64,000 bases of DNA, taken from positions 1-64,000 of IMG/VR virus record IMGVR_UViG_3300021468_000001; one strand, written 5' to 3'. The notes beneath the pieces were generated by a model. It did no database searches. It was not told the origin of the DNA and saw only the letters and a list, made by a program, of their open reading frames with translations. Made by a program: the position numbers and the translations under genes. Shown here piece by piece: positions 1-27,389 of this stretch (its first letter is position 1; each line of letters starts with the position of its first letter). This stretch comes from a virus.

Positions 1-142
1 TTCCCATCTCGAACTCGCCGCACTTGCCCCACAACGTAAATCTTTCGTCAGGATACTCTTCGTAAACAACGTCCATCAATTCTTGATATTTCCATACCTT
101 GCCACATCCGATACACCGCACTTCTGGTGGCAGGAACGTCAT
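1..142 (-). CDS. Hypothetical protein with CxxC motif (partial, runs off window)
   Basis: Manual translation MTFLPPEVRCIGCGKVW...; ATG overlaps the stop of 139..396. Confidence 0.6.
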   Translation of the reverse strand, partial: MTFLPPEVRCIGCGKVWKYQELMDVVYEEYPDERFTLWGKCGEFEMG

Positions 143-396
143 TTCTCACTTCCCAAAACGGCCATCTTCTTTATTTCTTGCCTACGCAATTTGGACATTG
201 CTTCGCCACGCGACCATCCCCAAGCCCAAGATTCGATAGGGTTGTCAATTCGTGCCGCGACCCATGCTATCTTTTTCCGCAACGGATTAGGGTCCACGAC
301 TAAAGAATAAATGGCGATGTTAAATTGCTTGCGCCGACCATCCGCCATCGCAAAAGATATTTTCGCGACATGACTCATTCCCTGTTTTTGCTTCAT
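139..396 (-). CDS. Hypothetical protein, possible HicB-like fold
   Basis: WAWGWSRGEAMSKL motif, shared with 12739..13008; GGAGAGG RBS. Confidence 0.55.
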   Translation of the reverse strand: MKQKQGMSHVAKISFAMADGRRKQFNIAIYSLVVDPNPLRKKIAWVAARIDNPIESWAWGWSRGEAMSKLRRQEIKKMAVLGSEK

Positions 397-409
397 GCTT
401 TCCTCTCCA

Positions 410-507
410 AAACGGCCTCAAAAGCGGGGCAAAGGGCGGCCCGTGAGCGTGGCGTGAGGAAGGCCGCCCCGCCCCTACCCCAGCGGGGAGGCCGGTTTCC
501 GCCGGGG
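410..507 (-). ncRNA. Structured intergenic RNA: two GC-rich hairpins with C/U-rich loops, possible pseudoknot
   Basis: Minus-strand stems CCCCGGCGG/CCGCUGGGG and GGGGCGGCCU/GGGCCGCCCU; G-U pairs favour the minus orientation. Confidence 0.55.
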
Positions 508-1250
508 CTATTTCTTCGCATTGTTATCTCCCCCGTCAACGCGCCGAATCAGGCGAATGGTCGAGCAAGTCACAGAAGCGGGGACTGCTGGCATAGTTGC
601 TTCCGCAACTGCCCGCGGTAACCGCTTGCCCTGTCTTTTGCATCTCCAAAATATCCGCGTCATTTTGGGGTCCCAGTTCGCGTCAGGCAATACGTTTTTT
701 ATGTACTTAACCCCTTTTGCTTCCGCTTCCCATATTTCTGCATCTCGCGCCATATATCCCGCCCAATACCTTGCCCATCCCTTACTCCAAAAGGCAAAAA
801 AAGTCTCCATCTTCATCTGCGCACTTCCACCTTCGGCGTGGAAATCTTTTTCTGAAAGGGGGCGGCGTAAAATACGAATATAACCCCTTTCCCATTTTCC
901 GCAGTAACTTGTAAACCTTTTTCACTTCAGACATCACGGCTTCTCCAGTCTGGCATCTCGTCCCACGTTCTCCCGTCGAGTTCTCGTTTCATGGTTGGTC
1001 TTCTACGCATCGGGCCGCCAGTAATACTTTTCGGCGAGGTGCGGGAATATCGCCGCCGCAAAGTCGCGCGAAACCACTTTGCCGTTGTCGAAAGCGTTGC
1101 GTCCAACTTTGCTCTCCAGTCAGAGAGGATTTGCGCTTCCCAAAGCGGCGTATCGCCCTTGAACTTCTCGCCCCAAACCATCGCCACGGCGACAATATCT
1201 GGTGCGATGGCGCGCACCCATATCTCCGTCACTTCTAATGCTTCTGACAT
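508..1250 (-). other. Two hypothetical CDSs (508..816, 927..1250)
   Basis: Co-oriented with the arm, RBS present, Trp-rich products without recognisable motifs. Confidence 0.65.
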
Positions 1251-1654
1251 TTGTTGGCCTCCTTCAAAATCTCCATTATATGAAGAAATGCCTCGTCGGA
1301 ATACCAGTCCTGTCTATAGTATAACAACAACGCCATGTAGTCCACAAGGTCGTCGAAGCGCCCTTCCAGAAACGCATAAACGGCACGCCGCGCATATCCC
1401 AAAAACAAGCCTCCCTCATCTCCCCAAGGCCATACGCCTTGCTTTACCGCTTGCAGCCATTTTGCTGCATATTTGCGACGCCGTGGGTCCGCCGCACCTA
1501 AGTTAACCTTGCGTTGGTTGAATTTCAAAAGCATGGCTTCATATGCGTTTTCTTTTTCCCAACGCTTCCACCGCCATTCTGTCACGCCTGCCAACAACGC
1601 GGCTGTTCTTTGCGATATGCCAAGTAGTTGTCTTGTCTTTATGACTTCATTCAC
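1235..1654 (-). CDS. XRE/Cro-type helix-turn-helix protein
   Basis: RQLLGISQRTAALLAGVTEWRWKRWE; GTG start at 1654 follows a GAGGAGG RBS. Confidence 0.75.
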   Translation of the reverse strand: MNEVIKTRQLLGISQRTAALLAGVTEWRWKRWEKENAYEAMLLKFNQRKVNLGAADPRRRKYAAKWLQAVKQGVWPWGDEGGLFLGYARRAVYAFLEGRFDDLVDYMALLLYYRQDWYSDEAFLHIMEILKEANKCQKH

Positions 1655-1841
1655 TCTTTGGCCTCCTCTTTCGTTTTCCTGAAGGTTTGAACCCGATACG
1701 CTGTTCCACCTTGCACTTCTTCGCCAGCTTTTCGTAGATTCTCGCCGCTTCACGGTAGCGATTGGCCGCCTCTATACAACATTCAGCAGCCTCTTCTAGA
1801 CATTCGACAGGATCCTTTTCTTCTTCCTTTTGCTCATTCAT
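1647..1841 (-). CDS. Hypothetical protein; paralog of the N-terminus of 11808..12215
   Basis: MNEQ...LEEAA.C..EA shared; DNA-level repeat. Confidence 0.6.
   Translation of the reverse strand: MNEQKEEEKDPVECLEEAAECCIEAANRYREAARIYEKLAKKCKVEQRIGFKPSGKRKRRPKSE
1663..1685. repeat. 23-bp exact repeat, second copy at 12101..12123
   Basis: CTCCTCTTTCGTTTTCCTGAAGG at both positions. Confidence 0.9.
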
Positions 1842-2103
1842 TTCAGCCTCCTCACAGATACTCACAGTTAGTATCAGGAATTTCCTCGCCTAATCGCTCT
1901 GCCTCCATCTTTTCCCAAAGGCAGTCCGCTTTTCGGATCCAGTTAGGGCACGTGTTTGCTTCTATCTCAAGGACTTCCTCTATGAATTTCTTTGCTTTGC
2001 GAAAGGGGATGCCGCGCAACAAAAATATGTTCATGGTTTCTGTTACATCGACTTTAACCCAAACCCTTCTGGTCCGAGACTTCCTCATTTTGGCCTCCTT
2101 CAA

Positions 2104-2445
2104 TCAATAAAAAGAAACGAGGATTTTCTCCCAATCGCCAATTGGGGCAGCGATGAGGATTTGCCCGCATTTCTCACAGATACCAAACCAACAATGTATT
2201 TTGTAGGGCCCTGTTTTTATTGTATGCCTTTCCAGTGTTACATACGAAAGAGGGAGGGACGGTTCGTAGTCTGGCACCCTTTCGGGACATTGTGGACATA
2301 GGAAAAGAAGTTTGTCTTCAGGAAAAACATCTTGCTCCGCCTTCTTTACGTCATACGGGTTTAATCCCCCAATTTGCTCCATCGTTGGCCTTCCGTGGAA
2401 ATGCCGGGCGTTCCACTGCTTGGAGTAACGCAACTCGATTTTCAT
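2104..2445 (-). CDS. Zinc-binding protein, paralog of 2948..3316
   Basis: CPQCP...WFGICEKCGQ...DW. Confidence 0.7.
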   Translation of the reverse strand: MKIELRYSKQWNARHFHGRPTMEQIGGLNPYDVKKAEQDVFPEDKLLFLCPQCPERVPDYEPSLPLSYVTLERHTIKTGPYKIHCWFGICEKCGQILIAAPIGDWEKILVSFY

Positions 2446-2951
2446 TCTCCGGCCTCCTCGTTTATTTTCGCAATCGCGCGGCGCATTCGCCTAAGGGTCT
2501 CACTGTCCCATTCGCTTTTTGCGGCCTCGGCGAGTGGCTTGATAGCGCGCTTATCTCCAATTCTCCCAAGCGCTATTGCAGCACCCCAGCGAACAAACTC
2601 GTGCTCATCCTTCAACGCTTCGATGAGCGGCACAACCGCGCGCCTGTCGCCGATTTCGCCGAGCGCCAGTGCGACTGCTCCGCGGACCCGAACTTCCAGG
2701 TCTTTTAATTTTCCTATCAGCGGACGAATCGCGTGCCTATCCTTGATTTTACCGAGCGCATGGGCCGATATGCTCCGGACAAAACCATCGGTATCTTCCA
2801 ATAGCCTTTTGATAAGGGGCTTCACAAAGTGCTTGTCGCCAACTTCGCAGGTTCTATATATCTCTAAAACAGCCTTCGTCCGATTTTGAACGTCAACATC
2901 TTCGAGCATTCTGATAAGTTTTTCGGCATTCTCTTCACTTCGCTCGCTCAT
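2442..2951 (-). CDS. HEAT-repeat (PBS lyase-like) protein
   Basis: Repeated VR..AA.ALG.IGD.RA..PLI..L.D units. Confidence 0.92.
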   Translation of the reverse strand: MSERSEENAEKLIRMLEDVDVQNRTKAVLEIYRTCEVGDKHFVKPLIKRLLEDTDGFVRSISAHALGKIKDRHAIRPLIGKLKDLEVRVRGAVALALGEIGDRRAVVPLIEALKDEHEFVRWGAAIALGRIGDKRAIKPLAEAAKSEWDSETLRRMRRAIAKINEEAGE

Positions 2952-3316
2952 CGTTCGGCCTCCTCTAACCCCCAAAGCCACCGGAACCATCTATCTTCTT
3001 CCATACGCTGAATTGCAAGAGCCTCAAAGTATGTGTTCACTTCTGACCAATCAAAATAAGCAACCGTCGTTTGGCCGCACCTCCCACAGGCGCCAATCCA
3101 AATTGATATCGGCAGGTCTTTTGTGGGAACAAGGAATCTACGTTCCTTCATCTCAACAATGCTTTCCACGAGACTGTCAGGCGGCTCGCTCTCACCGATA
3201 AACAAGTAAGGGCAAACAGGACACGGCACTTTGATGACAGAGTTTCTGGGGACCGTTATTTGCCATGCGTGCTTTTTGTCAGGAATCGTTGCGACTTCTA
3301 ACTCGACTACGTTCAT
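2948..3316 (-). CDS. Zinc-binding protein, paralog of 2104..2445
   Basis: CPVCP...WIGACGRCGQ...DW. Confidence 0.7.
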   Translation of the reverse strand: MNVVELEVATIPDKKHAWQITVPRNSVIKVPCPVCPYLFIGESEPPDSLVESIVEMKERRFLVPTKDLPISIWIGACGRCGQTTVAYFDWSEVNTYFEALAIQRMEEDRWFRWLWGLEEAER

Positions 3317-3783
3317 TCTTCGGCCTCCTCATCTGCCTTCACAACCAGAATAAATCCCCACGCCGCCAGCACCAGCACGCCTATCACAACCGGCCACCAC
3401 CACGTCGCCCTGCCGAGCGAAGCCATGACTGCAAGCGTGAACGTGGCCACAGGCCCCAGCACCACGGCGAAGAGCGCCACAAAGACAAGTAGCATCCGCC
3501 AGAGAATCCAAGCGGTGGCGTTAAAACGGCTCATGGGAAAGTCCCTCGAAACCAGCCATACTCCGCTACTCTGGCGTTTGAGATACACGATTAAAATTAG
3601 CGACCATGCCGCTGCCACAATTGCACCTGTCGCAACTGGCCACCACCATATTACATTATCAAGTGCGGCCAGAACGATAAGTGCAACAGTAAGAAGTGGG
3701 CCAAACGTAGCGCAAAGCAGAACCACAACGAGGAGCATTATTCCGATAGCCCACGCCACGCCACTAAGGAATTTACCCATCAC
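3313..3783 (-). CDS. Membrane protein with internal tandem duplication
   Basis: Two copies of GP..T..L.V.A.L....WWWPV..G.....AW..IL. Confidence 0.8.
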   Translation of the reverse strand: MMGKFLSGVAWAIGIMLLVVVLLCATFGPLLTVALIVLAALDNVIWWWPVATGAIVAAAWSLILIVYLKRQSSGVWLVSRDFPMSRFNATAWILWRMLLVFVALFAVVLGPVATFTLAVMASLGRATWWWPVVIGVLVLAAWGFILVVKADEEAEE

Positions 3784-4054
3784 CGCTCTCCTCCAAATAA
3801 ACTGTGATTTGATTTTCCCAAAATATCGAGACCTGCATCAATCATATCGCAATGATGGCCAGACCTGCTTGCTAAAATCATCATCCACGTTACTGCCCCT
3901 AAGAGGCTATCTTTCTGTCCAGCCAAGAGTGCCCTAACTGCAACTTTAGATAGCGCACGAACCTCGCGCTCTTCTTTCGTTCCGTTAGGACGCATCCATC
4001 GTTTTATTTTCCGCAACCATTGCGTTGCGTATTTCCGGCGCCGGGCGATTGTTT

Positions 4055-5047
4055 TTAGCATCTATTACCTCCTCTTTTCGCAAATGGGAGCGGAGGTGCA
4101 GTTGTTGCAACCCTCCATCTCGCAAACTTTACCGTTTCAGGATTCAATTCGATTCCGATAAAATGACGCCCGAGGCGCTTTGCGACCGCAGCCACCGTTC
4201 CAGATCCGATGAATGGATCAAGCACGACTCCACCCGGTGGGGATCCTGCAAGAATTGCAGGCTCAACGAGTTTTTCCGGGAATGCCGTAAGATGTAAGCT
4301 AAAAGATTTTGCCGGAGGTATCGTCCAAACATCTCCTGGGTTCTTGCCTTTCTGCCCCGGCTTTTCGCCAATCGGGACTCCACCACTATCATGCCGTTCT
4401 TTTTCTGCGGAACTTGCTTTTGCCCCAACAAGTTTTGCTCCCCGCCTTTTGCTCTTTGCCTCACGAACACGATAATTGAATTTTGCAGGCCCAGTTTTAT
4501 GAGGTACGCGGATGGCGTCCAGGTCGAAATAATATCGAGGATTCTTAGCGAAAAGAATAAATGGTTCCCAGGTTACTGCGAGACGGTCTCGTACTGATTC
4601 CGGTATTGGATTGGGTTTTCTCCATACAATCCAATTCCGCAAAGTCCATCCTAGGCGGTCCACCATCGCAATTGAGAAACGTTGTGGAATTTGTAAAAGA
4701 CACTTTGGCTGATGCTTGCGAATCCTTGCTTTTGGCGGATTGTCGGGATGGTAGTCTTCGTTCGCCCACGATCTTGATATTCCCTTCCCGCCACCAGAAG
4801 CATACGTATCGCCAATATTGACCCAGCAAGTACCGGAGTCTTTTAACGCCCTCCTAACTTCGGCAAAGATTTCGATTAGTCGATCAATATACTCACCAAT
4901 CGATCCTTCAAGCCCTAATTGCCCATCCACTCCGTAGTCGCGCTGCGAAAAATACGGCGGTGACGTGATTACGCAATCAACGCTTTCACTAGGAACCTGC
5001 TCCATGATCTCTAACGCATCGCCCTGATAAATTGTGTCCAGTTCCAT
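4055..5047 (-). CDS. DNA methyltransferase, N4/N6 family (beta class)
   Basis: TSPPY catalytic motif N-terminal, VLDPFIGSGT SAM-binding motif C-terminal. Confidence 0.95.
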   Translation of the reverse strand: MELDTIYQGDALEIMEQVPSESVDCVITSPPYFSQRDYGVDGQLGLEGSIGEYIDRLIEIFAEVRRALKDSGTCWVNIGDTYASGGGKGISRSWANEDYHPDNPPKARIRKHQPKCLLQIPQRFSIAMVDRLGWTLRNWIVWRKPNPIPESVRDRLAVTWEPFILFAKNPRYYFDLDAIRVPHKTGPAKFNYRVREAKSKRRGAKLVGAKASSAEKERHDSGGVPIGEKPGQKGKNPGDVWTIPPAKSFSLHLTAFPEKLVEPAILAGSPPGGVVLDPFIGSGTVAAVAKRLGRHFIGIELNPETVKFARWRVATTAPPLPFAKRGGNRC

Positions 5048-5066
5048 AATTCATTCCTCTCAATTC

Positions 5067-5098
5067 GGGTAGGGGCGGCTGCTTAACCGCCCCCACCC
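5067..5098 (-). promoter_or_regulatory. 14-bp GC-rich hairpin upstream of the methylase RBS
   Basis: GGGUGGGGGCGGUU-AAGC-AGCCGCCCCUACCC; no U-tract, so more likely a stabilising or processing hairpin than a terminator. Confidence 0.5.
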
Positions 5099-5993
5099 TG
5101 CGCGCCGGTGGGGAGGCCATCCACCGACGAACTTACTATCGGTACTAGAAATAAAAACTTCTTCTGCTTTACAGCAATCTTGGCAATTCGCTTTGCGATA
5201 ACGCCCCCAACCTTACAATACTCATTTACAAGAGTTGCTACCACTTTCTCAACCGATTTTTCAGACACTTTCAAACTCGCAACGCATTCTCCCTCGCGTT
5301 TTATCCTTATATTTATAGCCGCATACCACTTCTCGATCTCTATTTCCCACCGAACACCAGACAATCCTTCTTTCAATCTTCGTCCTCCCCATACAGCGTT
5401 GATAAGTGGAACTTCACATCCTCAAGCATTCTATCCGCCAAAAAATCCGAAGGCGAAACCCAACTTCCTTCATTCTTCTTTCTCTGCTGGTTGTTCGCTC
5501 GCCATTCTCTTGCAAGGTCGCAATGGCAAATTGAAAAAGCCTTCGGTGCAATCCTATGCGCGAGTTCATTGGCGGCATCTCTTGTGTCCTTGCCAATCGC
5601 AAAAAGATTCGATGGAGCACTTAGCGCAACGATGAACACAAAGTTTTCAAATTCAAATACTGCAATTTTGAACTGGCCTCTTCTTGAACATGCAGGACAT
5701 TGTACACTGATCCAATCTACCTTTGATGAAACAACATTCGGCTGCATTTACTGGCAACCTCCTATCAGAAAGAGAAAGAAGCAGAGACAAATAAAGGCGA
5801 ACGGCAGCATGATTATAAAAGTAAGCCAAAGAACCCCATGAGCTGCGAGAGGCACGCGGTCCTCAAACTGGACGGGCTCGTAGTAACGTTCACCTCGCGA
5901 CCAATGCCGTCGTGGACGCTTCGAGTATCTCGGTCTTTCTCTTTCTGATCGTAACCGCCTCGGGTAAGATCGCCTTGGATAATTTCGTCTCAC
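5083..5993 (-). other. Three hypothetical CDSs (5083..5376; 5373..5747 with CxxC; 5748..5993 Arg-rich with C-terminal TM helix)
   Basis: Coupled starts and stops, RBSs. Confidence 0.7.
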
Positions 5994-6023
5994 AACAAGA
6001 CCTCCAACTAGTTTGTAAAAACG

Positions 6024-6081
6024 GGCGGGGCGACCCTAAGTGGGTGAGGTGGTGATGCCAAAAGAAAGGAATCGCCCCGCC
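6024..6081 (-). ncRNA. Large-loop hairpin with anti-RBS loop, followed by U-tract
   Basis: Stem GGCGGGGCGAUUC/GGGUCGCCCCGCC; 32-nt loop contains CAUCACCACCUC. Confidence 0.55.
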
Positions 6082-6090
6082 GCATTTTTT

Positions 6091-6624
6091 TCAAATCCAT
6101 TCTCCGTCTACGTCCCTTACTTGCTTTATAACTAGTTCGAGCGCTTTCAAAAACGCACCTTTCGCATCTTCTCTGCTAGGCATAAAGAGAAATGGAATGC
6201 CAAAGCAAACATGCCACGAAACAATTGAGCCCCAAATCGCAGTCTGCCGAATGGCCCTTCCAGTAGTTGCGGCAATAAGAGAACTAAGAGAGAACTCGCA
6301 AATCACACAGCGAAACTCAAACTTCTGAAGCCTACGGAGTTCGTTTTCCCATCTATTGCGCTCTGGCCCGATCATCGAAAGAAACTCATTGGGGCTTCCT
6401 TTTCGCTCGATAGCAAAAACGTTGCGTAGGTCAAGGTCGCCAACAATTGCTGAATAGTCTCCCGTTTCAAGCCGCACTTTTCTTGATAGCGAAAATCCCC
6501 ACGGATCTTGTTCTCTTTCATCAATCAATACAATTGCGCTGTCGATCAACCGCTTCACCGTTTTTGTTCGCGGCTCGCTGAAAAGGCTTGTACCCCAATC
6601 TTTTGACCAATCAACTCTTGGCAT
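6091..6624 (-). CDS. ERCC4/XPF-family nuclease (probable junction resolvase)
   Basis: IDEREQ, LETGDY, AIERK motifs. Confidence 0.92.
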   Translation of the reverse strand: MPRVDWSKDWGTSLFSEPRTKTVKRLIDSAIVLIDEREQDPWGFSLSRKVRLETGDYSAIVGDLDLRNVFAIERKGSPNEFLSMIGPERNRWENELRRLQKFEFRCVICEFSLSSLIAATTGRAIRQTAIWGSIVSWHVCFGIPFLFMPSREDAKGAFLKALELVIKQVRDVDGEWI

Positions 6625-6626
6625 CT

Positions 6627-8009
6627 TTATCCCTCGATTTGCGCGGGATCGCCTACCACCCGAATCCTAAAACGCATTGCTTCATATTGCCTCTTTCGCG
6701 CAAAGAAGAGAACCTGCCCAAATCCCCCATCAAAAAGATCAACCACCAAAGGAGATTTTGATCCGCTCGCACCTTTTCGCATGACCCTGCCAACCCTTTG
6801 CTTAGTTTTTACTTTGCCCCCAGCCGGGGCGCAGAGAATTAGTGCATCGCATTCGGGGAAGTCAGTTCCCTCTCCAAGGAGTTGTTCGGTTGCCACCAAA
6901 ACCCCGATTGTGGAATGCCTAAAGTCCTCAATGTTTTTTGCACTTTCCCTAGCCCTTCCATGAGCAATCGAGTTATCAATCCCTGCATCCTTGATTTTTT
7001 GGCTTAAGGCCTTAACGTGGCCAACTCGCGACGTCAACAATAAAATCTTCTTCTTCCCGATGTTACGTAATCGCTCGACAGTTTTTGTAATTAGCGTATC
7101 GCGCTGCCTTGATGCGAGGATTTCCGCAACAAAAACCTGGAAGAACGTCTTTCTCAAGTACCCACATTCTTTTGGATTGATTTTGCAACGCTGCCTGAAC
7201 TTGCACTTCTCAAGGCAAAAATCAGCCTCGGAACTTGAGACGTTCGTTTTCAAAAAGAAGACTGTCGGTAGCGCAAGTACATTTCTTGCGTCCTCCAGTG
7301 AAATCTTATAGACGAAGCTTGAAAGCAAAAACCTAAAGCACTTCCCAAACTCATCTCTTCTATGAAGCGTTGCGGTCAACCCAAAACGGTATTTTGCCTC
7401 GGCCCATTCAAGAACTTGAATGAACTTCTGCGCCGGGACATGAGCCACCTCATCCAGTATAATACAACCGTAGTCATCAGAAATGTACCCTTGATACAGA
7501 ATTTTTTGAAACGTTGCGATTGTAATTGCAGACTCTGCCCGTTTCTTTCTTCCCCAATTGCAATCTGCCTTGATGCCTAAAAACTTCTTACAGGCTTTCC
7601 ACGTCTGTTCCGCAATGTTTTTTGTAGGGACCAAAAATAGCGTCTTGACTCGTAACCTTGATGCCAACGCAATACCGATTATCGTTTTGCCAGAGCCCGT
7701 TGGGGCTTCCAGGTACCCGCTCTCTCTTCTGGCCAACTCACTTACTGCTTTTTCTTGAAACGGAAACAGCCTTCCGCGAAAAGACGGGAACCCAGGTTCT
7801 TCCCACGGCTCAACCAACTCGAAGGGTATGTGCACCCGCTCTGCCATCCCGCGATGAACAAAAACAGCATCTTCGTCGCGCTTGATGATTCTGTTTATTG
7901 TCTCCTGTGAAAGGCTACTCGTTAGCTGGCGAATCCGAGGCCATAGCGCATCAAATTGCTCTTTTGAGACTCTGACCATGCCATCGCGGCTAGGCTCAAT
8001 AAATCTCAT
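6627..8009 (-). CDS. Superfamily 2 DNA helicase (XPB/Rad25-like)
   Basis: APTGSGKT, DEVAH, GLTAT, QRVGRVMR. Confidence 0.93.
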   Translation of the reverse strand: MRFIEPSRDGMVRVSKEQFDALWPRIRQLTSSLSQETINRIIKRDEDAVFVHRGMAERVHIPFELVEPWEEPGFPSFRGRLFPFQEKAVSELARRESGYLEAPTGSGKTIIGIALASRLRVKTLFLVPTKNIAEQTWKACKKFLGIKADCNWGRKKRAESAITIATFQKILYQGYISDDYGCIILDEVAHVPAQKFIQVLEWAEAKYRFGLTATLHRRDEFGKCFRFLLSSFVYKISLEDARNVLALPTVFFLKTNVSSSEADFCLEKCKFRQRCKINPKECGYLRKTFFQVFVAEILASRQRDTLITKTVERLRNIGKKKILLLTSRVGHVKALSQKIKDAGIDNSIAHGRARESAKNIEDFRHSTIGVLVATEQLLGEGTDFPECDALILCAPAGGKVKTKQRVGRVMRKGASGSKSPLVVDLFDGGFGQVLFFARKRQYEAMRFRIRVVGDPAQIEG

Positions 8010-9648: not shown

Positions 9649-10379
9649 TATTGCCCCTCCGTCATTTCCCCGCCTTACGTGAAGTTTTCTTCGCTGCTGT
9701 CTTCGTGGGTTTTTTGTGCTCCGCGATTTGGGCGATGTGGACTCGCTTTCTATCTGGCGGAACTCCATCGTCGCTTGCTTCGAGGTAATAGACTTTACAG
9801 GATTCCGCATCTTCTTTCTTCGCAATCGCTCTTTCGCAGTCTATGGAAATAGGCTTTTTCTTATACTTGTTGAACATGTACTCGTGACGGATTTCTTCAT
9901 AATCCAACATCGCCAGAATCACGTCCTTTGCGAACCAGACGTTATCGGCCTTCACCATGAACTCGCCAATCCCGTCTCGCAACTCCCCAGTTACAAGGTC
10001 TTTCGACCACCGCTTCAGCTCCTCCCTTACCTTTTTTCTCATTCTTCCAACCTTCTAAAGGGGCCATACTGCAGTAATTATGACACTGCTTCTATTTGAT
10101 CCATTTTCCGCTGCTCGGGTAACAATGTATCCCTTCGCCGCCGAATCCACCCTCTCTTTCTCAACCAACTGATCATCTCATTTTCACGCTCCTTAAAAAC
10201 ACGAAAAGCTACAACCGAAAACCTTTGGCCTTTGAGGAACCTTTCGGTAAAAGCAATAGCCTCCAGTGCCGCGGGCGCTTCCCGCGCAGCAGAAAGAACT
10301 TCATGCCAGGAGGGTGCTAACAAGAGAATCTGTGAAAACTGGCGCATCTATCGGCCTCCAAATAAGCCCATTTCCCGGT

Positions 10380-12092: not shown

Positions 12093-12439
12093 TCTCTGGT
12101 CTCCTCTTTCGTTTTCCTGAAGGCTGGAGTCCGCCTCGCAGTGGCAATTAGCCGCCTCTTCCAAACTAAACCGCAGATACCGAGTAAGGTCCATTTTTTT
12201 ACCCTGCTCATTCATTTTCGGCCTCCTCCAATTCCCGCACTACCTGCAACAACTCCCGCTTGCCGATGCCCAACTTGCGGCAGAAATCGACAAGCGTGAT
12301 TTCGTGCGCTTCGATGCCGACGAGTTCGTCATACCACCCGTCAACGCGGATTACGCGCCGAGACTTCACAAACTCAATGCCAATACCGGTCCATGCATTC
12401 CCGAAGATTATTGATTTAGGCTCGCCCATCAACTTGCCC

Positions 12440-17154: not shown

Positions 17155-17445
17155 TCTCCGCATCACTCGGCCTCCTCCTTCAGCGCCTCTTTCAGCGTCC
17201 GCCAAACGCGATAGCGAAACAGGTCATTTGGATCATACTGGCGAAATGGCCTGCACATTTGCCGCGCTTGCGTCCGACTAAATATCAGATAGTCCTTTGA
17301 ATGCTCGCCAGTCTCGACAAACCTTGTTTTTTCTTCTTCTGTCGGCCAGTAGCGTTGGCCGGGATAGCCATATCGTAGAGACCTAGACCCCGCCCATACC
17401 CAAATTGCCCTTTCCCTTGCGTCTCTCCGCATCACTCGGCCTCCT
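17155..17445. repeat. 22-bp direct repeat (17155..17176, 17424..17445) flanking one ORF
   Basis: TCTCCGCATCACTCGGCCTCCT twice. Confidence 0.9.
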
Positions 17446-19179
17446 ATATTGCCAATTGCGCGGACGCGGCGATTTCCTCAATAAGACAGTCTGCGCGATA
17501 CTCCATCTGCATCCAGTAGTAGTAACAACCCCGCCCGCGACACTGGCGATATTCGCCGCTCTCTGGGCAAGTGATGTATTCGCGCCCGCACGGAGCATTA
17601 GCCGCACCCTGCTGGGCTCCACGATAGTATTGCCCCAGCGTCAACACTATCTGCATATATCTCGCGTAGTGCCGAATCACGGGCAGGTCGTCCGGGTCAT
17701 AATAATTTGTCTCTTTCCAATTCCATCCGCTGTGATGCCACTCCGTTTCCACGCCCAACCTGTCTACGGCCGCCGCCGTTACCCGACGGCGACGCCCGCG
17801 CACGCGCACGGTCCCGCATCGCCGGGCCACTTCTGCGGCAGTCAGCAAGCCGCGCGCGCTCGCATCTGCCGCACGCCGACTCCGCCGCGCTCCGCATTTC
17901 GTCAACATCACTCGGCCTCCTTCAATATCACAAGGTCGCATATCCGAAGCCAGTCGGGCTCGCTTACGATTGTTGATCGTGAGCCATCCCGCGACCAATC
18001 GCTTACGCTAAAAATGCCAGTTTCCAACAATGGGACTACCTTACTATCCCAAAACCTTCGCTCCTGAAGACGTCGGTTTTTCGCGGCGCGCAACTTGATG
18101 ACTACCTCATCCCCGCGAATCTGCCCGCCCGTTACTAAGGCTATAATTCTACGGGCTGCATCAACGCTCATTGAGAAACTTTCGGACATCTCTCGGCCTC
18201 CTCCAACTTATACTGGGCGACGTCCTCGAACAGAAGCGACCACACGTCCAGAAGCAACTGCTTGTTGTCGCCTTCCAATACTCGCCTTGCGCCGTCGCCC
18301 CAGTCCATGAACACGTATTCGACCCGGTGAACGTGGAGCGCGGCATCTGTGTAAAACCGGAACTCGTCGCTCGGCCCGCCCCAAGATATTTGGTAGCAGA
18401 AGTATCCCTCGTCCTGTCCGTCGAACGTGCCCGCCAACACGTAGTCGAAGCACAGGCCGTGCTCGTAAATGGCTTCTTCGGGATGTTCTCCATACTCCGC
18501 GACCATTGCGTCACGCTCCTTTTCCGAAAGATCGTCGGTTGCAGCGCGATAGAGCAGCCGGAGCTCTTCTATCTCGTCCGCCAAACTTGCCTCGATTCTT
18601 TCCTCACACGTCAACATTACTCGGCCTCCTTAAAGCAGGCGGCCTCGACCGCGTATCCAACCCCGTCGCTGCCATCCAGTATTCTGGTGTGATACTCTGC
18701 GGCGATTTCTCTTGGCAGGAGGCGCGCTACGCTTCCAACAATTCGGTATAGCCGCTCGGCTACTTCGAGCACGTCGTCGCTTGCGTCGCCTTTCACGTGG
18801 TTAGCAACGTTTCCGAGCGCTTCCATTGCGAGGCAGGCGTCTTCAGCGACACACTCTGCGATTCTTTTTACCATCCTTCCTATCTGCATTACTCGGCCTC
18901 CTCTACATGTTCAAAGATAAGCATCCGCATCTTCCCAAGCGCTAGAGATATCACACCGAATGCCTGGTTTAGAAGCTTCCCGAGTTCTTTCCTTTCTTCC
19001 TCTGTTCCGTTAATCCAGGCGTCCTCTGCTTCAAGTGCCATAGCCATCGCTGCGTCAACTGCGGCCTTTATTTGGTGAAGTGCCCCGCTCAACATCTTAT
19101 GATTGCTAGCCCTTGTAGAAGCTACTTGAACTCCATTTAACGCCTTCCGCGCCTCCTCAAGCCCCATGTGCTGACCCTC

Positions 19180-21566: not shown

Positions 21567-24500
21567 CTTCAATCCTCCTCACTCATTTTCTGCAGCGCAT
21601 CGTTCGCCGCTTTCGCAAGTAACAACCACCCGCCTAGCCGCATCTTTCGCGCAACGTCAACCGCGCTGCTTGCATACTGCCTCCCGCGGCGGATGTTACC
21701 ATCTTCCAGGCAACAAATCACGAGCCGTAAGTACTGCTTCAACATTTCAACTGCTTCTCCCTTCGACATGCCTGCCCCTCCAAAACAGCCCTCCGGGCTT
21801 GTCGAATACGAGCGCGCAACTCTAAAACTACATCACCGCCAAACTCTGTTGAGATTGAAGATAGCAGCCTTGAAGCACGCTCAATCATTCCCGGGTTGCC
21901 CGTAGTAACCGCGGCTTCGAGAACCTCAAGTACTTCACGCTGCCTATTCCTGACAACCTCAACTTGCCTGCGAAGCGTCGAAGTCTCCGCCATCCCATCT
22001 ACTGCCTCAATAAACCGCTCGCAAAACGAAAGGAAGTCGCAGTCGAGGCCCGCGACGATGTAAAGATTACGCAGTGCGTCTATTCGAAGTCCACGTTGCG
22101 CTATCGCCCCTCTTCGTTTTTGCTTTCGCTCCGGGTTGAACCGTATCATCATAGCCTCCTTTTATCCATATTGCCGTAGTAATCTGAGACCCGAACTCTT
22201 GCTCCAGTGCCGCGACTATTCCCCAATTTGCAGGCAATCCCAGTCGCTTGAGCCCGCGCTTCACGCGCCTGCTCCACTGCGCTGCTTTACCGCGACACTT
22301 GTTCAACTCAATCTTTATCTGATGTTTGCTTATCATCGTTCTATCCTTTCGACTCGCCCCGTCGTGAAGTCTGTCAACTTTAAGCCCGGGCCTTCCTGCT
22401 CCACCTTGATCTCCGCTTTCCACCACATTGGCGTCTGCAGTCCAATCACGACTCCCCAGCGCCGCTCCTTCCGAACCACCAAGGCAACCCCCCCCTGCTC
22501 CGCCATCTTGATAGCCCAGGCCAAAGCACCGCGTAAACTCCACCACTTCCGCATCTTTACGCCTGCACCCTCTAGCCTCGCATTCATGAAGATTCTCCCA
22601 AAGGAGGCCGTTACGTTGCGGCTCGTCCACCGCTCAGTCCAGCTCGGCAAGCTGCGTGCCTACTGTATCCGTCCCATCGGGCTCAGTCGCATGAAACAAC
22701 ACGCCGTTGTCAATCCACCACACGAAGCCGTGATAGTCGTCCATCTTTTCGCCAGACAGCAGGCATTTCCAGCAAGCCTCACAGACCTGCAATTCGCAGC
22801 CGCAGTAGCCTGCTTTCATCTCTTTCTCTGCATCCTTACCGCAAAAGACGCAGTCCATCTCAAACCTCCTTATAAGGCCGCATCCTCCAGGCATCTTGCG
22901 ATGAATCGGAAAACGTCCACTAATATAGTGAGACGCCACACGTCAGGCTCACGCCCGAAGACCATTCTCGCCAACTCCTTCTTGCTTGGCCCGCGGTGAA
23001 AGCACCAGCGGAATTTTATCACCCGGACTACTCTCCCCTCGCGCCTCCACAGGTAGTAATCTGCGTTCATTACGCCTAGCGGCACCCGCATTTGATACCA
23101 CTTCTCGCCGTCCACTGTTACTTGCCTTGCATTCATCACTCGGCCTCCCTATAGCAGCTCAACACGCCAATTGGCTTTCCAGTTGCTTAACCTGCCTCAC
23201 GCTCCACTTTTCAAACTCGCTGCTGAACCGTCCCGGTGTGCTCCACCTTCCGCGGTGCGAGCCTTCACGCCCGAGACCCCTTCGTTCTAATTCCGCCCAC
23301 GTCCACATACGCGGCGCGCTGCGTTTCCAGGCGCTCCTATCTACTACCGCTAACTGCCGCGTTATCGGCTCCCGCAAGTGGCCAGAGAATCGGAAGCCTG
23401 CGAATGCTCCGTTCATGCGCAGCGACACGTAAAATGACTCCGTTGTCTTCGCGCTGCTTACATACAGGTCTTTCGCGTTGCAGCCCCATCTGGCCAATAT
23501 CAGAAGCACGCACGCCGCGTCGCGCGCATACGTATCCTCTCCCGCTACTAGTCGCCGCAATGCGCAGCGTATGTTGCCTTTCTCTTTCTTCCAGAGCGGG
23601 TCCAACTCCGTCCTTTCCCAGGCCTCCCGCACCAGTTTACGAGCAATGCGCGCCGCCTTGCGCCAAACCTGCCGCCCTAATTCGTCACTCATCTGTCGCT
23701 GCCTCCTTCAGCGGCTTGATAAAAACTCCAATTCATAAGCAATCCTTGGCGCTGGCGCTATCTTCACACGAACGCCGTTCACGGTCTGAACAGGCTCTCC
23801 GCGCCGCGTCGTCCAGCCCACAAAATCAAGCCCGGCCCTCTCAACCGCGCCCTTGAGTTTACGGCAAAACCGCTGCCGGCTTTCCTCAACCCGCTTCTTC
23901 AACAATGACAATTTATACTCCAGATCATCTGCCCGTGAAGCCCTCGAAGTCTCCATCTCCACTACATCAATCACATGTTGAGAGTCGCCGTCTATCACCC
24001 AAACAACAAACGGCCTCCCCGTCTTGCTTTTCTCGGACGCTCGCACATAGGCTGTGTATCCAAGTCGCTCCAACGCCGCAGCCACACCTTCTGCCTCTTC
24101 CCTTGTTCGCATTGCATGGAACACCGCAAACTTTTCCGCCTCCGTCTTGCGCTTCATTATATCCTCCCTATATCGCTACGATTATTTCTCTGCGCTCAAC
24201 ACAAGGCCGCTTCTCAAGCGCGATCATCGCACGCTCCCAATTTCTCCACTTCTCCTCGTAGGCCTCCTCCGCCTCACGCCGCGCCCTGTAAACCGTCTTG
24301 CCGCCGTCGTGACTCCACACTACGCCCGGCGGCACGCCTTCGCCGCACCAGACTTTCCCAACGCGCTCCCACCGCGGCCCCATCCCGTTCCGAAACCTGC
24401 TCATTGCTCGCCCCCTCTAAAATTTCCCCCTCCACGCAAACGGGCCTATTACCAATGTTCCTCCTTCGTCCTCTGACCGAGCAGGCACCATCACCGCCTT

Positions 24501-25533
24501 CTCCTTCCGAAGTACCTGAGCCAAAATGTCAATGTGCTGACGAACCCATAAGTCCGCTTCAACAAACCCTATAGCCCACTCTATCGCTTCTCGCGCAGTC
24601 TCGCACTGCGATACGCCAAGCGGCGGAACGTCAACTATCCGCCCGTCCCGCCTCACAACTATCGCCAAGTATGCATTCCGCTCCATAATTCTTCCCTCAA
24701 CCGCTCAATCTATTCCGCCTACTGTTGTTTCCACTGCGATTGTCGGATACAGGCGACGTAGCAACCGCTTGAACGCCCCTTCGACTTCGTCCGGGTTTCT
24801 TGGCGCATTGCCCACCGATTCGCAGAGCCGAATTGCTTTCATGCAGTTCCGCACTGCTTCTCCGGCTGTATCGCCCCAGTCTGTCCATCTCCAATCCGTC
24901 CATTCCGCTCGCGCCTTCCATCGCTTCGTTTCCAGCGAGAATTCGATTGATACCTTTATCATCAGCACGTCCTCCAATCCACGACGTTTTTGCGAGCAGG
25001 CGAGTCAGGCTATTCACGCCTCAGTATTGCGTCCGTAACTTCCGCCGCCGCGTCGCGCACTTTCTCCATCATCTGGACGGCTTCCTGCAGCACTCGCAGC
25101 AGCTGCTTGGCAGGGCCTTCCGCCCCGCTGCCACTGTGGTCATAAACCGCGTCCTCGAGCGCGGCAAACCACATGAAGACGTTGCACAGACGCCCGCGCA
25201 ATTCCGCCGTGAATTTCTCCGCTTTCTCAATCGCGGCATCATGCTTTGCCTGCCCTTCCATTTTCCAGCCTCCTACGATTTGTCCGCAACCGCGGCGATT
25301 GTCTCCGCGGCCGACCGCAATTCGCCTATTTCACGGAACAAGTCATCCATAGCGCACGACAGGTCGCGCCCGTCACTATAGACCTTGTTCCTGATCGCCT
25401 CAAACTGCGTGGCCACCCTGCGGAGTTGCTCGCGAAACAGCACGAACAAGGCGGTTACTTCTCCGAGTTGTTGCGCTCCCATCTTCCGGCCTCCTATTGC
25501 AGCCCGACCGCATCCTGTTTTAGGGACGCGCGC

Positions 25534-25868: not shown

Positions 25869-26740
25869 GCCCACGTGATCCCGTGTCCGTGTCCGCGCGC
25901 CCCACCACGAACGGCGGACGGGGCGGCCCTGTGGCCGCCCGCGCCCGTCCGCGCCCGTGTGGTGGTGGTAGTGATCATTTTCGCGCGCCCGCCTTCTGCG
26001 CGGTTTTCTGGCCGGCCTGCATTTCGGCGAAGGCCGCGTCCACGACCGCGGCCAGTTTGCCAGAATACGCGAGCGCGGCCAGTTTGTACTTGTCCACCGC
26101 GGCCGCGCCACGTTTCAGTTGCGCGAATTCCGCGCCCGTGTCCACACAGACGCCCGCGCCCGGTTCTGTTCCGTCGCGCTCGTGACGTTCGCGAATGTGC
26201 GCGCGCGCGAGAAGCCAGTACGCGTGCGCCGGCTCGGCATTTTTGCCGTTGCCGTTGCCGTTGTTTCGACCATTGTTCGAGAGTCCCATCCCAAGACCTC
26301 CTATAGGGTTATTCTACGCGCGCGTTATACGCGCACCTTTTTCCGCGAACACCGCGGCGACCGCATCTGCCGCCGCACGTAACAGATTGTATTCGTGCTC
26401 GTTCATCACGTATCCCCTTATACACGCGCCCGCGTCGCCGCCGACCACCCGCGGCGCGCGTTCCATGTCGCGCCCTCGAGCGCCGTCTGTCGCCCGCCGC
26501 CTGCCGCACAGGCCCAATCCGCGAGCGCGTATCGCAACGCCGCGGATATCACCGACGCCAACGCCGCCGACGCCAACGCCACCACGCCCGCCTTGAACGC
26601 GCTCACGAAGAGCCGCGCGTTGAATCGGTCTTCCACGCCCGCGTTTCGATATGCGCCCGCAAATTCCCGCTTCCAATCCACCGCGTATTCCATGATCACC
26701 ACCTCCACATTGTCCGCCGCGGCCCACCCGTGACCGCCAC

Positions 26741-26966: not shown

Positions 26967-27389
26967 GTGGGGCGAAAGGTAAGGGGGTTAGGGCGCGAGG
27001 TAGTTGAGGCGGTGATAGGGGGGATAGAGCGCGGGATAGAGGTAGGGGACATGGTACAGTTAGCGGTGCTGTGGGGCGAGTTATGGGAGGCGGAGGTAAG
27101 GAGCATGGGGGCAGTGAGGGCGCGGATAGGGGAGGTGAGGGAGCGGTTGGAAGGGGAGGTAGTAAAGCGGTTAGGGGAGGCAGAAGAGGTAAAAGGGAGG
27201 ATGTTAGAGGGGTGTGGGCGGATGATACAGGTGATGGCAGCGCGGCGGTATTTGATGGCGGAGCGTGCTGAGGCAGTAGAGCGTGGCGAGTGGAGGGCGG
27301 ATGGGCGGATAAAGGAGTGGCGCAAGATAGTGGGGGAGGTAGGGCGGTGCGCGAAGAAGAAGAATGGGGGCAAGGCAAGTGACGAATGA
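26967..27389 (+). CDS. Putative terminase small subunit
   Basis: Directly upstream of and overlapping the large subunit, helical, GGAGG RBS; function by position only. Confidence 0.5.
   Translation: MGRKVRGLGREVVEAVIGGIERGIEVGDMVQLAVLWGELWEAEVRSMGAVRARIGEVRERLEGEVVKRLGEAEEVKGRMLEGCGRMIQVMAARRYLMAERAEAVERGEWRADGRIKEWRKIVGEVGRCAKKKNGGKASDE

What the first reader, a model, noticed from the sequence alone, without database searches (positions are those of the whole stretch)
410..507. Hairpin RNA whose loop is the antisense of the early-gene RBS motif: candidate RNA-based translational control system
Seen: on the transcribed minus strand a 9-bp GC stem presents the loop AAACCGGCCUCC. CGGCCUCC is the exact complement of GGAGGCCG, which precedes at least 13 left-arm start codons. 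A second hairpin presents UCCUCACGCCACGCUCAC. The first loop can alternatively pair in cis with GAGGCCGUUU (410-419) just before the next RBS, forming a pseudoknot. Inference: with the similar hairpins at 6024 and 62171, the phage may encode a set of stem-clamped anti-RBS RNAs. Made from the far end of the arm, they could shut off a whole class of early genes through one shared target. I know of no described phage system with this layout.
Basis: partly seen in the sequence, partly recalled or inferred. Interest (0 to 1): 0.85.

Follow-up and report, generated by a model that had tools for sequence, protein, structure and literature searches.

The report
GC double hairpin with anti-RBS loop
Between two small early genes of an orphan hydrothermal-vent phage sits a very stable two-hairpin RNA element, most likely a leaky terminator or mRNA-end stabiliser. 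One loop mirrors the phage's private ribosome-site tag, but nothing shows that this acts as a regulator in trans.

Summary
On the minus strand, 426-508 folds into two GC-clamped hairpins. The 12-nt loop of the first contains CGGCCUCC, the exact complement of GGAGGCCG. That tag occurs 18 times in the window against 2.4 expected, and 13 copies lie 3-5 nt before a leftward ATG.

- The record is a circular assembly (127-bp end overlap), so the element is not at the far end of the arm. About 12 kb of leftward genes follow it, including a primase-helicase.
- The "set" claim fails. The loops of hairpin 2 and of the 6024 hairpin pair with start regions no better than their own shuffles.
- No promoter, no Rfam family, no RNA data and no fetchable relatives were found.

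In favour of real pairing, the anti-tag 8-mer occurs only twice on transcribed strands, both times between genes (P about 0.0025). The loop is predicted to be open. A cis partner, GAGGCCG, lies just after the U-tract.

My estimates:
- cis-acting terminator or stabiliser hairpins: 0.45
- trans-acting anti-tag RNA: 0.22
- local translational switch using the loop-tail pairing: 0.15
- chance or relic sequence: 0.13
- small ORF: 0.05

Earlier notes of this scan describe similar anti-RBS hairpins in other phages. Here the idea stays untested.

The parts
508..816 (-). Upstream small ORF (102 aa, no family). Its UAG stop (510-508) abuts hairpin 1.
477..508 (-). Hairpin 1: a 9-10 bp GC stem closing a 12-nt loop.
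   Evidence: -19.3 kcal/mol on its own
487..498 (-). Loop 1, AAACCGGCCUCC. Positions 494-487 (CGGCCUCC) are the exact complement of the tag GGAGGCCG.
   Evidence: unpaired probability 0.8-1.0
426..475 (-). Hairpin 2: about 15 bp with a UU bulge and a 19-nt C-rich loop (461-443). It is terminator-like.
   Evidence: -29.9 kcal/mol
420..423 (-). Short U-tract (UUUU), two nucleotides after hairpin 2. In the alternative stem GCGGGGC/GCCCCGC, which I read from the sequence, it follows the stem directly.
   Evidence: Other terminator-like hairpins in this genome carry U5-U8.
410..419 (-). Tag-like GAGGCCG plus UUU, the cis partner of loop 1. An H-type pseudoknot is sterically possible.
   Evidence: P = 0.033 against shuffled tails
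394..408 (-). SD GGAGAGG and the AUG of the downstream ORF 139-396 (85 aa).
393..521 (-). Alternative 42-codon ORF across the whole element. The product is rich in Arg, Gly, Pro and Ala, and its stop overlaps the next start (ATGA). Judged unlikely to be a gene.
22603..22612 (-). Second anti-tag, CGGCCUCCUU. It complements up to 10 nt of AAGGAGGCCG and lies 3 nt upstream of the SD of ORF 22333-22587.
2450..2457 (-). RBS tag GGAGGCCG before an ATG.
2956..2963 (-). RBS tag GGAGGCCG before an ATG. It is also a breakpoint of a two-gene deletion variant.
3321..3328 (-). RBS tag before an ATG.
10352..10359 (-). RBS tag before an ATG.
12219..12226 (-). RBS tag before an ATG.
17168..18901 (-). Six consecutive junctions carrying the tag, at 17168, 17437, 17913, 18194, 18622 and 18894. 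Most read GGAGGCCGAGURAUG.
23141..23148 (-). RBS tag before an ATG.
25487..25494 (-). RBS tag before an ATG.

Best explanation
The element is a cis-acting intercistronic RNA structure in the long leftward (early and replication) transcription unit of a circularly assembled 74.6-kb siphovirus-like phage. Two GC-clamped hairpins followed by a short U-tract most likely act as a leaky intrinsic terminator. They would also form a nuclease-resistant 3' end for upstream messages and mark a module boundary. This part is inferred.

On this reading the anti-tag in loop 1 is a side feature. Either it pairs locally with the tag-like GAGGCCG that follows the U-tract, giving a pseudoknot that only read-through RNA can form, or it is a coincidence in a GC-rich loop. 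The structure, its position and its complementarities are shown. Termination, stabilisation and any pairing in the cell are inferred.
For: - The region is a GC island: 79% GC against a 50% genome mean. The 90-nt fold at 421-510 is the third most stable in the genome.
- Both helices are clean and persist in folds at 55 and 70 C. That matters because the phage comes from vent metagenomes.
- Hairpin 2 is followed by UUUU.
- The genome's other large-loop GC hairpins sit where terminators are expected: 6024 with U5, which I read on the plus strand as U7; about 20770 with U8; 39200 with U7 after the capsid gene; and 62171 where the two arms converge, again as tandem hairpins.
- Downstream genes must still be expressed. 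More small genes, a primase-helicase and a PD-(D/E)XK nuclease follow, so any termination must be partial.
- In a roughly 91%-identical strain the alignment runs through the whole element and stops at 513, the stop codon of the upstream gene. The element is therefore a mosaic boundary.
- No sigma-70-like promoter lies on the minus strand nearby, and no Rfam family matches.
- Loop-tail cis pairing is -14.6 kcal/mol (P = 0.033). It becomes the best nested fold when the 5' arm of stem 1 is blocked.
Against: - The U-tract is only 4 U, after a GC spacer. The loops of 12 and 19 nt are far larger than typical terminator loops. The simple terminator scan did not call the element on the minus strand.
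- The fold is no better than shuffles of the same composition (z = -0.64).
- A purely structural role does not explain why the loop carries the exact 8-nt complement of the tag (1.6% of shuffles of this region contain it). It also does not explain why the only other copy on the transcribed strands is intergenic too.
Confidence: 0.45

Rival explanations
1. Trans-acting anti-tag RNA. Termination at 420-423 or processing after the UAG releases a stable RNA of about 90 nt: a seed hairpin plus a terminator hairpin. Its open loop pairs with GGAGGCC(G) at 14-20 leftward ribosome sites and blocks initiation or reinitiation. The cis copy GAGGCCG lies just beyond the U-tract, so only read-through RNA would mask the loop.
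For: - The 8-nt match is exact, and the loop-tag duplex is -18.4 kcal/mol against -11.8 for a generic 16S anti-SD tail.
- The loop beats all 200 shuffles and 99.7% of controls that keep the CCUCC core.
- Unpaired probability is 0.8-1.0 in every context folded.
- The anti-tag occurs only twice on transcribed strands, both times between genes (P = 0.0025). The second copy, at 22603, complements up to 10-11 nt.
- No late, rightward gene start carries the tag. The only two sense-strand copies in the right arm, at 35768 and 59348, lie inside coding sequence.
- All four large loops are C-rich on a G-rich transcript, as read.
- The layout resembles CcsR/cuckoo and Rsa-type C-rich-loop RNAs (PMC4615179, PMC8034643, PMC2790875).
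Against: - There is no evidence that a discrete RNA exists, and no nearby promoter. The U-tract is weak.
- Each transcript carries one loop copy against 14 or more targets.
- The anti-tags lie on the same early transcripts as their targets, and none lies on a late transcript.
- The other loops show no specific complementarity.
- No relatives were available, so conservation and covariation are unknown.
- Cassette recombination at the tag offers another reason for the tag's conservation. A strain variant joins 2089 to 2956 and rebuilds a tag-spacer-ATG junction.
Confidence: 0.22
2. Local translational switch for the downstream gene. The loop-1/GAGGCCG pseudoknot here, and the CGGCCUCC-SD hairpin at 22603, act only in cis. 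They would tune ribosome loading on the next gene (139-396 and 22333-22587 respectively). The switch would respond to ribosomes terminating at the UAG that abuts stem 1.
For: - Both anti-tag copies lie directly upstream of genes whose own SD is not the tag type (GGAGAGG, GGGAGA).
- A ribosome at the UAG would cover the 5' arm of stem 1. With that arm blocked, the best fold pairs loop 1 with GAGGCCG around hairpin 2.
- Cis pairing has P = 0.033 against shuffled tails and 0.002 against shuffled loops.
- At 22603 the anti-tag pairs with sequence around the start codon in the MFE fold.
Against: - The pseudoknot does not cover the true SD (402-408).
- The fold at 22603 is weaker than its shuffles (z = +1.05).
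- The CGG extension is not needed for local anti-SD pairing.
- The strain variant changes 412 (U to C on the RNA) next to the helix and has indels at 398-403, which bear on neither reading.
Confidence: 0.15
3. No RNA-pairing function. The anti-tag match is a coincidence, or a relic of recombination at tag junctions, inside a GC-rich hairpin block that hitch-hikes at a module boundary.
For: - Over the whole transcribed leftward strand, two copies of an 8-mer are about what chance gives. The whole-window expectation is 2.36 on both strands.
- The finding was picked post hoc from a 64-kb read that yielded 24 notes on this genome.
- GGCC, the core of the tag, is its own complement.
- Tags are recombination breakpoints in strain variants.
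Against: - Both copies are intergenic, although only 13% of the genome is non-coding.
- One copy sits exactly in an exposed loop.
- No similarity to an inverted junction extends beyond the 8-mer.
Confidence: 0.13
4. The region encodes a 42-aa protein (393-521, minus strand). It would be coupled to both neighbours: its ATG lies 14 nt inside the upstream gene behind GGGGGAG, and its stop overlaps the next start as ATGA.
For: An open frame with an SD at 6-nt spacing and an ATGA overlap.
Against: - In 79% GC about half of all frames stay open over this length (my estimate).
- The Arg/Gly/Pro/Ala-rich product looks unlike the phage's other small proteins.
- The strain variant has a net +1 indel at 398-403 that would remove the ATGA stop arrangement.
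- Translation would have to melt about -50 kcal/mol of hairpins.
Confidence: 0.05

Closest known systems
Rho-independent (intrinsic) terminators and intercistronic stabiliser hairpins in phage operons
   Same: GC-rich stem-loop followed by U residues, placed between genes of a polycistronic unit. The plus strand also forms a hairpin followed by a U-rich run. It sits at a mosaic module boundary.
   Different: The U-tract is only 4 nt after a GC spacer. The loops are 12 and 19 nt instead of 3-8. There are two hairpins in tandem. Genes that must be expressed follow directly.
Cuckoo / CcsR1-4 (alpha-r14) RNAs of Alphaproteobacteria (PMC4615179, PMC8034643)
   Same: 2-4 adjacent hairpins whose loops carry an anti-Shine-Dalgarno-like C/U-rich motif. 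[quoted passage not shown]
   Different: The defining loop motif CCUCCUCCC is absent. Only one of the two loops is specifically complementary to the tag. It is a phage element, not a cellular one. No Rfam match and no expression data.
C-rich-loop regulatory RNAs of Firmicutes (Rsa family and RsaE with UCCC loops, PMC2790875; RoxS, PMC5419742)
   Same: C-rich sequence exposed in a hairpin loop, with a terminator hairpin at the 3' end. From my own knowledge, these RNAs pair with SD regions of several mRNAs.
   Different: There is no sequence or Rfam similarity. The target here would be a phage-private 3-nt extension of the SD (CCG) rather than the generic SD.
c4 antisense RNA of phages P1/P7 (own knowledge; Rfam family named in an earlier scan note)
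   Same: A phage RNA encoded upstream on the same transcript as its targets. Its loops pair with RBS-overlapping sequences.
   Different: c4 has two specific target sites in one operon, not a class of 14-20 genes. No Rfam match here.

Membership tests
Intrinsic terminator | Stable GC-rich stem-loop | tested here: met
   Hairpin 2 is -29.9 kcal/mol and hairpin 1 is -19.3 kcal/mol. Both persist at 70 C.
Intrinsic terminator | Short loop (about 3-8 nt) | tested here: not met
   The loops are 12 and 19 nt. The consensus scan did not call the element on the minus strand.
Intrinsic terminator | U-tract of 5 or more directly after the stem | tested here: inconclusive
   GC then UUUU (423-420). U4 follows directly only in an alternative 7-bp stem, which I read from the sequence. 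Other hairpins in this genome carry U5-U8.
Intrinsic terminator | RNA 3' ends form at the U-tract | not testable with these tools
   No RNA holder was listed. The contigs laid cannot show RNA ends.
Cuckoo / CcsR RNA family | 2-4 adjacent hairpins | tested here: met
   Two hairpins separated by 1 nt.
Cuckoo / CcsR RNA family | Each loop carries CCUCCUCCC | tested here: not met
   The loops are AAACCGGCCUCC and UUCCUCACGCCACGCUCAC. The motif definition comes from PMC4615179.
Cuckoo / CcsR RNA family | Processed from a 3' UTR into stable small RNAs | not testable with these tools
   No RNA data.
Any Rfam 15 family (the earlier scan note names c4 as Rfam RF01695) | Covariance-model match at the gathering score | tested here: not met
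   No hit in the whole window. The relaxed search of 330-600 gave only chance-level hits with E of 0.2 or more.
Trans-acting anti-RBS small RNA (functional class) | Exposed seed complementary to the RBS of several targets, beyond chance | tested here: met
   for loop 1 only. Not met for loop 2 or the 6024 loop.
Trans-acting anti-RBS small RNA (functional class) | Seed and targets conserved or co-varying in relatives | not testable with these tools
   No relatives in viral, genome or phage collections.
Trans-acting anti-RBS small RNA (functional class) | Discrete, accumulating transcript | not testable with these tools
   No RNA run was listed.

The most novel reading that the evidence does not exclude
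The phage marks a class of 14-20 early genes with a private 3-nt extension of the Shine-Dalgarno sequence (GGAGG-CCG). It also encodes, on the same arm, RNA anti-tags: a stem-clamped loop at 487-494 and an open copy at 22603. These would pair with the tags to shut off or pace translation of the class. A decoy copy of the tag just beyond the terminator U-tract would mean that only terminated or released RNA exposes the loop. This would be a phage counterpart of the CcsR/cuckoo or Rsa-type anti-SD RNAs with a self-addressed target class.
Probability: 0.22. Interest if true: 0.75.

Novelty: new member of a known kind. Interest (0 to 1): 0.36.

Why it matters
If the hairpins are only a leaky terminator or stabiliser, this is ordinary phage operon punctuation. 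Its value is then mainly in annotating an orphan vent phage.

If the anti-tag pairing is real, the phage would address a whole class of its own early genes through a private RBS extension and one small RNA. That would be a compact way to time gene expression. Earlier notes of this scan suggest the pattern may recur in unrelated phages, so a single bench test would bear on a wider pattern. Suitable tests are toeprinting or a reporter with compensatory mutations.

The tag junctions also appear to be breakpoints of cassette gain and loss. This bears on how phage mosaicism arises.

Tried and rejected
- **RNA evidence.** No RNA holder was listed for window 1-7000, so expression could not be examined.
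- **Strain variation.** I laid contigs of four vent runs on the stretch. One variant, about 91% identical, covers 1-513, but the table of differences is cut off. By my reading of how the table was cut, differences inside 371-513 are unknown apart from 412 A>G and the indels at 398-403, with at most about 12 more. I therefore make no claim on conservation.
- The 82%-identical homologue P0002 of the downstream protein and the 52% TerL homologue P0004 could not be placed on DNA.
- **Relatives.** The flanking small proteins, the major capsid protein, the helicase and a TerL alignment found nothing in viral contigs. Nothing was found in genome contigs or in GenBank phages.
- **Motif scans.** The 15-mer junction motif gave only single, chance-level hits. 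A two-tag pattern gave none.
- **Element centre.** A 20-mer from the centre of the element found only the same phage (L128) and unrelated REP-like palindromes in metagenome contigs.
- **Repeat family.** The hairpins at 410-507, 6024 and 62171 share only 9-10-mers.
- **Attenuator model.** I tested whether the 3' arm of hairpin 1 pairs with the 5' arm of hairpin 2 as an antiterminator. The alternative helix is -23.4 kcal/mol folded alone against -29.9 for the terminator. As a two-strand duplex it scores -24.0, which is not beyond shuffles (P = 0.067). Not supported.
- **Recoding.** I looked for a frameshift or read-through signal at the UAG. There is no slippery heptamer, and the SD-like GGGGGAG is too far from the stop for a prfB-type shift. 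This is from reading the sequence.
- **Other checks.** No tRNA or tmRNA, no Rfam family, and promoter-like sites are not enriched.
- **The 6024 loop.** Its 11-nt match to 26695-26705 has a BLAST E-value of 1.1, which is chance level.

Full report
**Where the element lies**

The window is bases 1-64000 of a 74,682-bp IMG/VR virus record. Its ends repeat over 127 bp, which I read as a circular assembly overlap. An ORF runs across the junction.

Leftward genes fill 26.9 kb down to 1 and continue from 74.5 kb down to 62.2 kb. Rightward genes (terminase, capsid, tape measure) fill 27-62 kb. Position 410-507 is therefore in the middle of the leftward arm, not at its end. About 12.4 kb of leftward genes follow it, including a Toprim/AAA primase-helicase, a PD-(D/E)XK nuclease and a radical-SAM-like protein.

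The phage comes from hydrothermal-vent metagenomes. It has no relatives in any collection I could search. Only one 52% TerL homologue and one 82% homologue of the downstream small protein exist in the protein collection.

**The observation**

On the minus strand the UAG of ORF 508-816 abuts hairpin 1. That hairpin has a 9-10 bp stem and the loop AAACCGGCCUCC. One nucleotide later comes hairpin 2, with about 15 bp and a 19-nt loop. The order after that is GC-UUUU, GAGGCCG, UUUU, the SD GGAGAGG and the AUG of ORF 139-396.

The region is 79% GC in a 50% GC genome. Its 90-nt fold is the third most stable of 4,971 windows. It is no more stable than shuffles of its own letters (z = -0.64).

GGAGGCCG occurs 18 times against 2.4 expected. 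Thirteen of the 14 minus-strand copies lie 3-5 nt before an ATG, and six read GGAGGCCGAGURAUG. About 20 of 92 leftward starts carry GGAGGCC, and no rightward gene start carries the full tag. By established knowledge, the 16S tail reads CACCUCC, so the CCG extension cannot lengthen pairing with the ribosome.

**Is the loop match more than chance?**

Loop 1 pairs with the 91 leftward start regions better than all 200 shuffles of itself. It also beats 99.7% of controls that keep CCUCC and shuffle the rest.

CGGCCUCC occurs only twice on transcribed strands: in this loop and at 22603. Both lie in the 13% of the genome that is non-coding. Dinucleotide shuffles of the 45 leftward intergenic regions (3,521 nt) give 0.059 copies, so P(2 or more) = 0.0025. 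For this region alone P = 0.016.

I found the second copy only after framing the hypothesis. It complements up to 10-11 nt of AAGGAGGCCG and lies 3 nt before the next gene's SD.

The loop is predicted unpaired at 0.8-1.0. The loop-tag duplex is -18.4 kcal/mol. A generic anti-SD tail gives -11.8 and the cis site gives -14.6.

**What fails**

- The loops of hairpin 2 and of the 6024 hairpin do no better than their shuffles. The 62171 loop is marginal.
- The three elements are not copies of one another.
- The 6024 loop's 11-mer match has E = 1.1.
- No promoter-like site lies nearby, and no Rfam family matches.
- An antiterminator-like alternative pairing is not beyond chance.
- The 42-codon ORF across the element is probably a by-product of GC richness. 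A strain variant breaks its stop arrangement.

**Context from strain variants**

A roughly 91%-identical contig aligns through the element and stops at 513, so the element is a module boundary.

Another variant joins 2089 to 2956 with three letters between. On the RNA strand this rebuilds GGAGGCCG-GAGA-AUG and removes exactly two genes. The tags are therefore breakpoints of cassette gain and loss. That gives a second reason for their conservation, independent of any RNA regulator.

**Verdict**

The hairpins are most simply a leaky terminator or 3'-end stabiliser, like the other large-loop GC hairpins of this genome at 6024, about 20770, 39200 and 62171.

The anti-tag in loop 1 is a real, statistically unusual feature. 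It may pair in cis with GAGGCCG, which lies just past the U-tract and is therefore present only in read-through RNA. It may instead pair in trans with the tagged ribosome sites. I put the trans reading at about 0.22.

Known analogues exist: cuckoo/CcsR (PMC4615179, PMC8034643), Rsa and RoxS C-rich loops (PMC2790875, PMC5419742), and P1/P7 c4. The layout is therefore not without precedent.

Earlier notes of this scan report similar anti-RBS hairpins in other phages. I used them only as leads.

Noticed in passing
window 22603-22612 (minus strand): A second copy of the anti-tag, CGGCCUCCUU. It complements up to 10-11 nt of AAGGAGGCCG and lies in the 46-nt gap before ORF 22333-22587, 3 nt upstream of that gene's SD.
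   Followed up: partly
window 2089 / 2956: In vent run X6 a contig joins 2089 to 2956 with 3 letters between. This removes exactly two genes (2104-2445 and the HEAT-repeat gene 2442-2951) and rebuilds a GGAGGCCG-GAGA-ATG junction. The tag junctions are therefore breakpoints of cassette gain and loss.
   Followed up: partly
window 2597-2673: Several runs show contigs that 'go back' 38-69 nt here and carry variable inserts. The repeat units inside the HEAT-repeat gene vary in number or sequence between strains.
   Followed up: no
window about 27380-30192 (plus strand), protein P0003: The collection's version of the large terminase is 937 aa. It and its only homologue (52% identical) share a block of about 390 residues bounded by conserved SGC and VHNS motifs. 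This looks like an intein inside TerL. Not tested.
   Followed up: no
window 817-926 (minus strand): The gap before ORF 508-816 holds a hairpin, UUCCAC-GCCGAAG-GUGGAA, that encloses that gene's SD-like AAGGUGGA. ORF 508-816 is thus flanked by structured RNA on both sides.
   Followed up: no
window 6011-6095: The 6024 hairpin has U5 after it on the minus strand and U7 after it on the plus strand, so it looks like a bidirectional terminator.
   Followed up: partly
loci L122, L123, L125-L127, L129: Unrelated metagenome contigs share a REP-like palindrome of the form GTAGGGGCGGGG-loop-CCCCGCCCCTAC next to the conserved AAACCGCTGGG. It is probably a bacterial repeated extragenic element and was matched by chance.
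   Followed up: no
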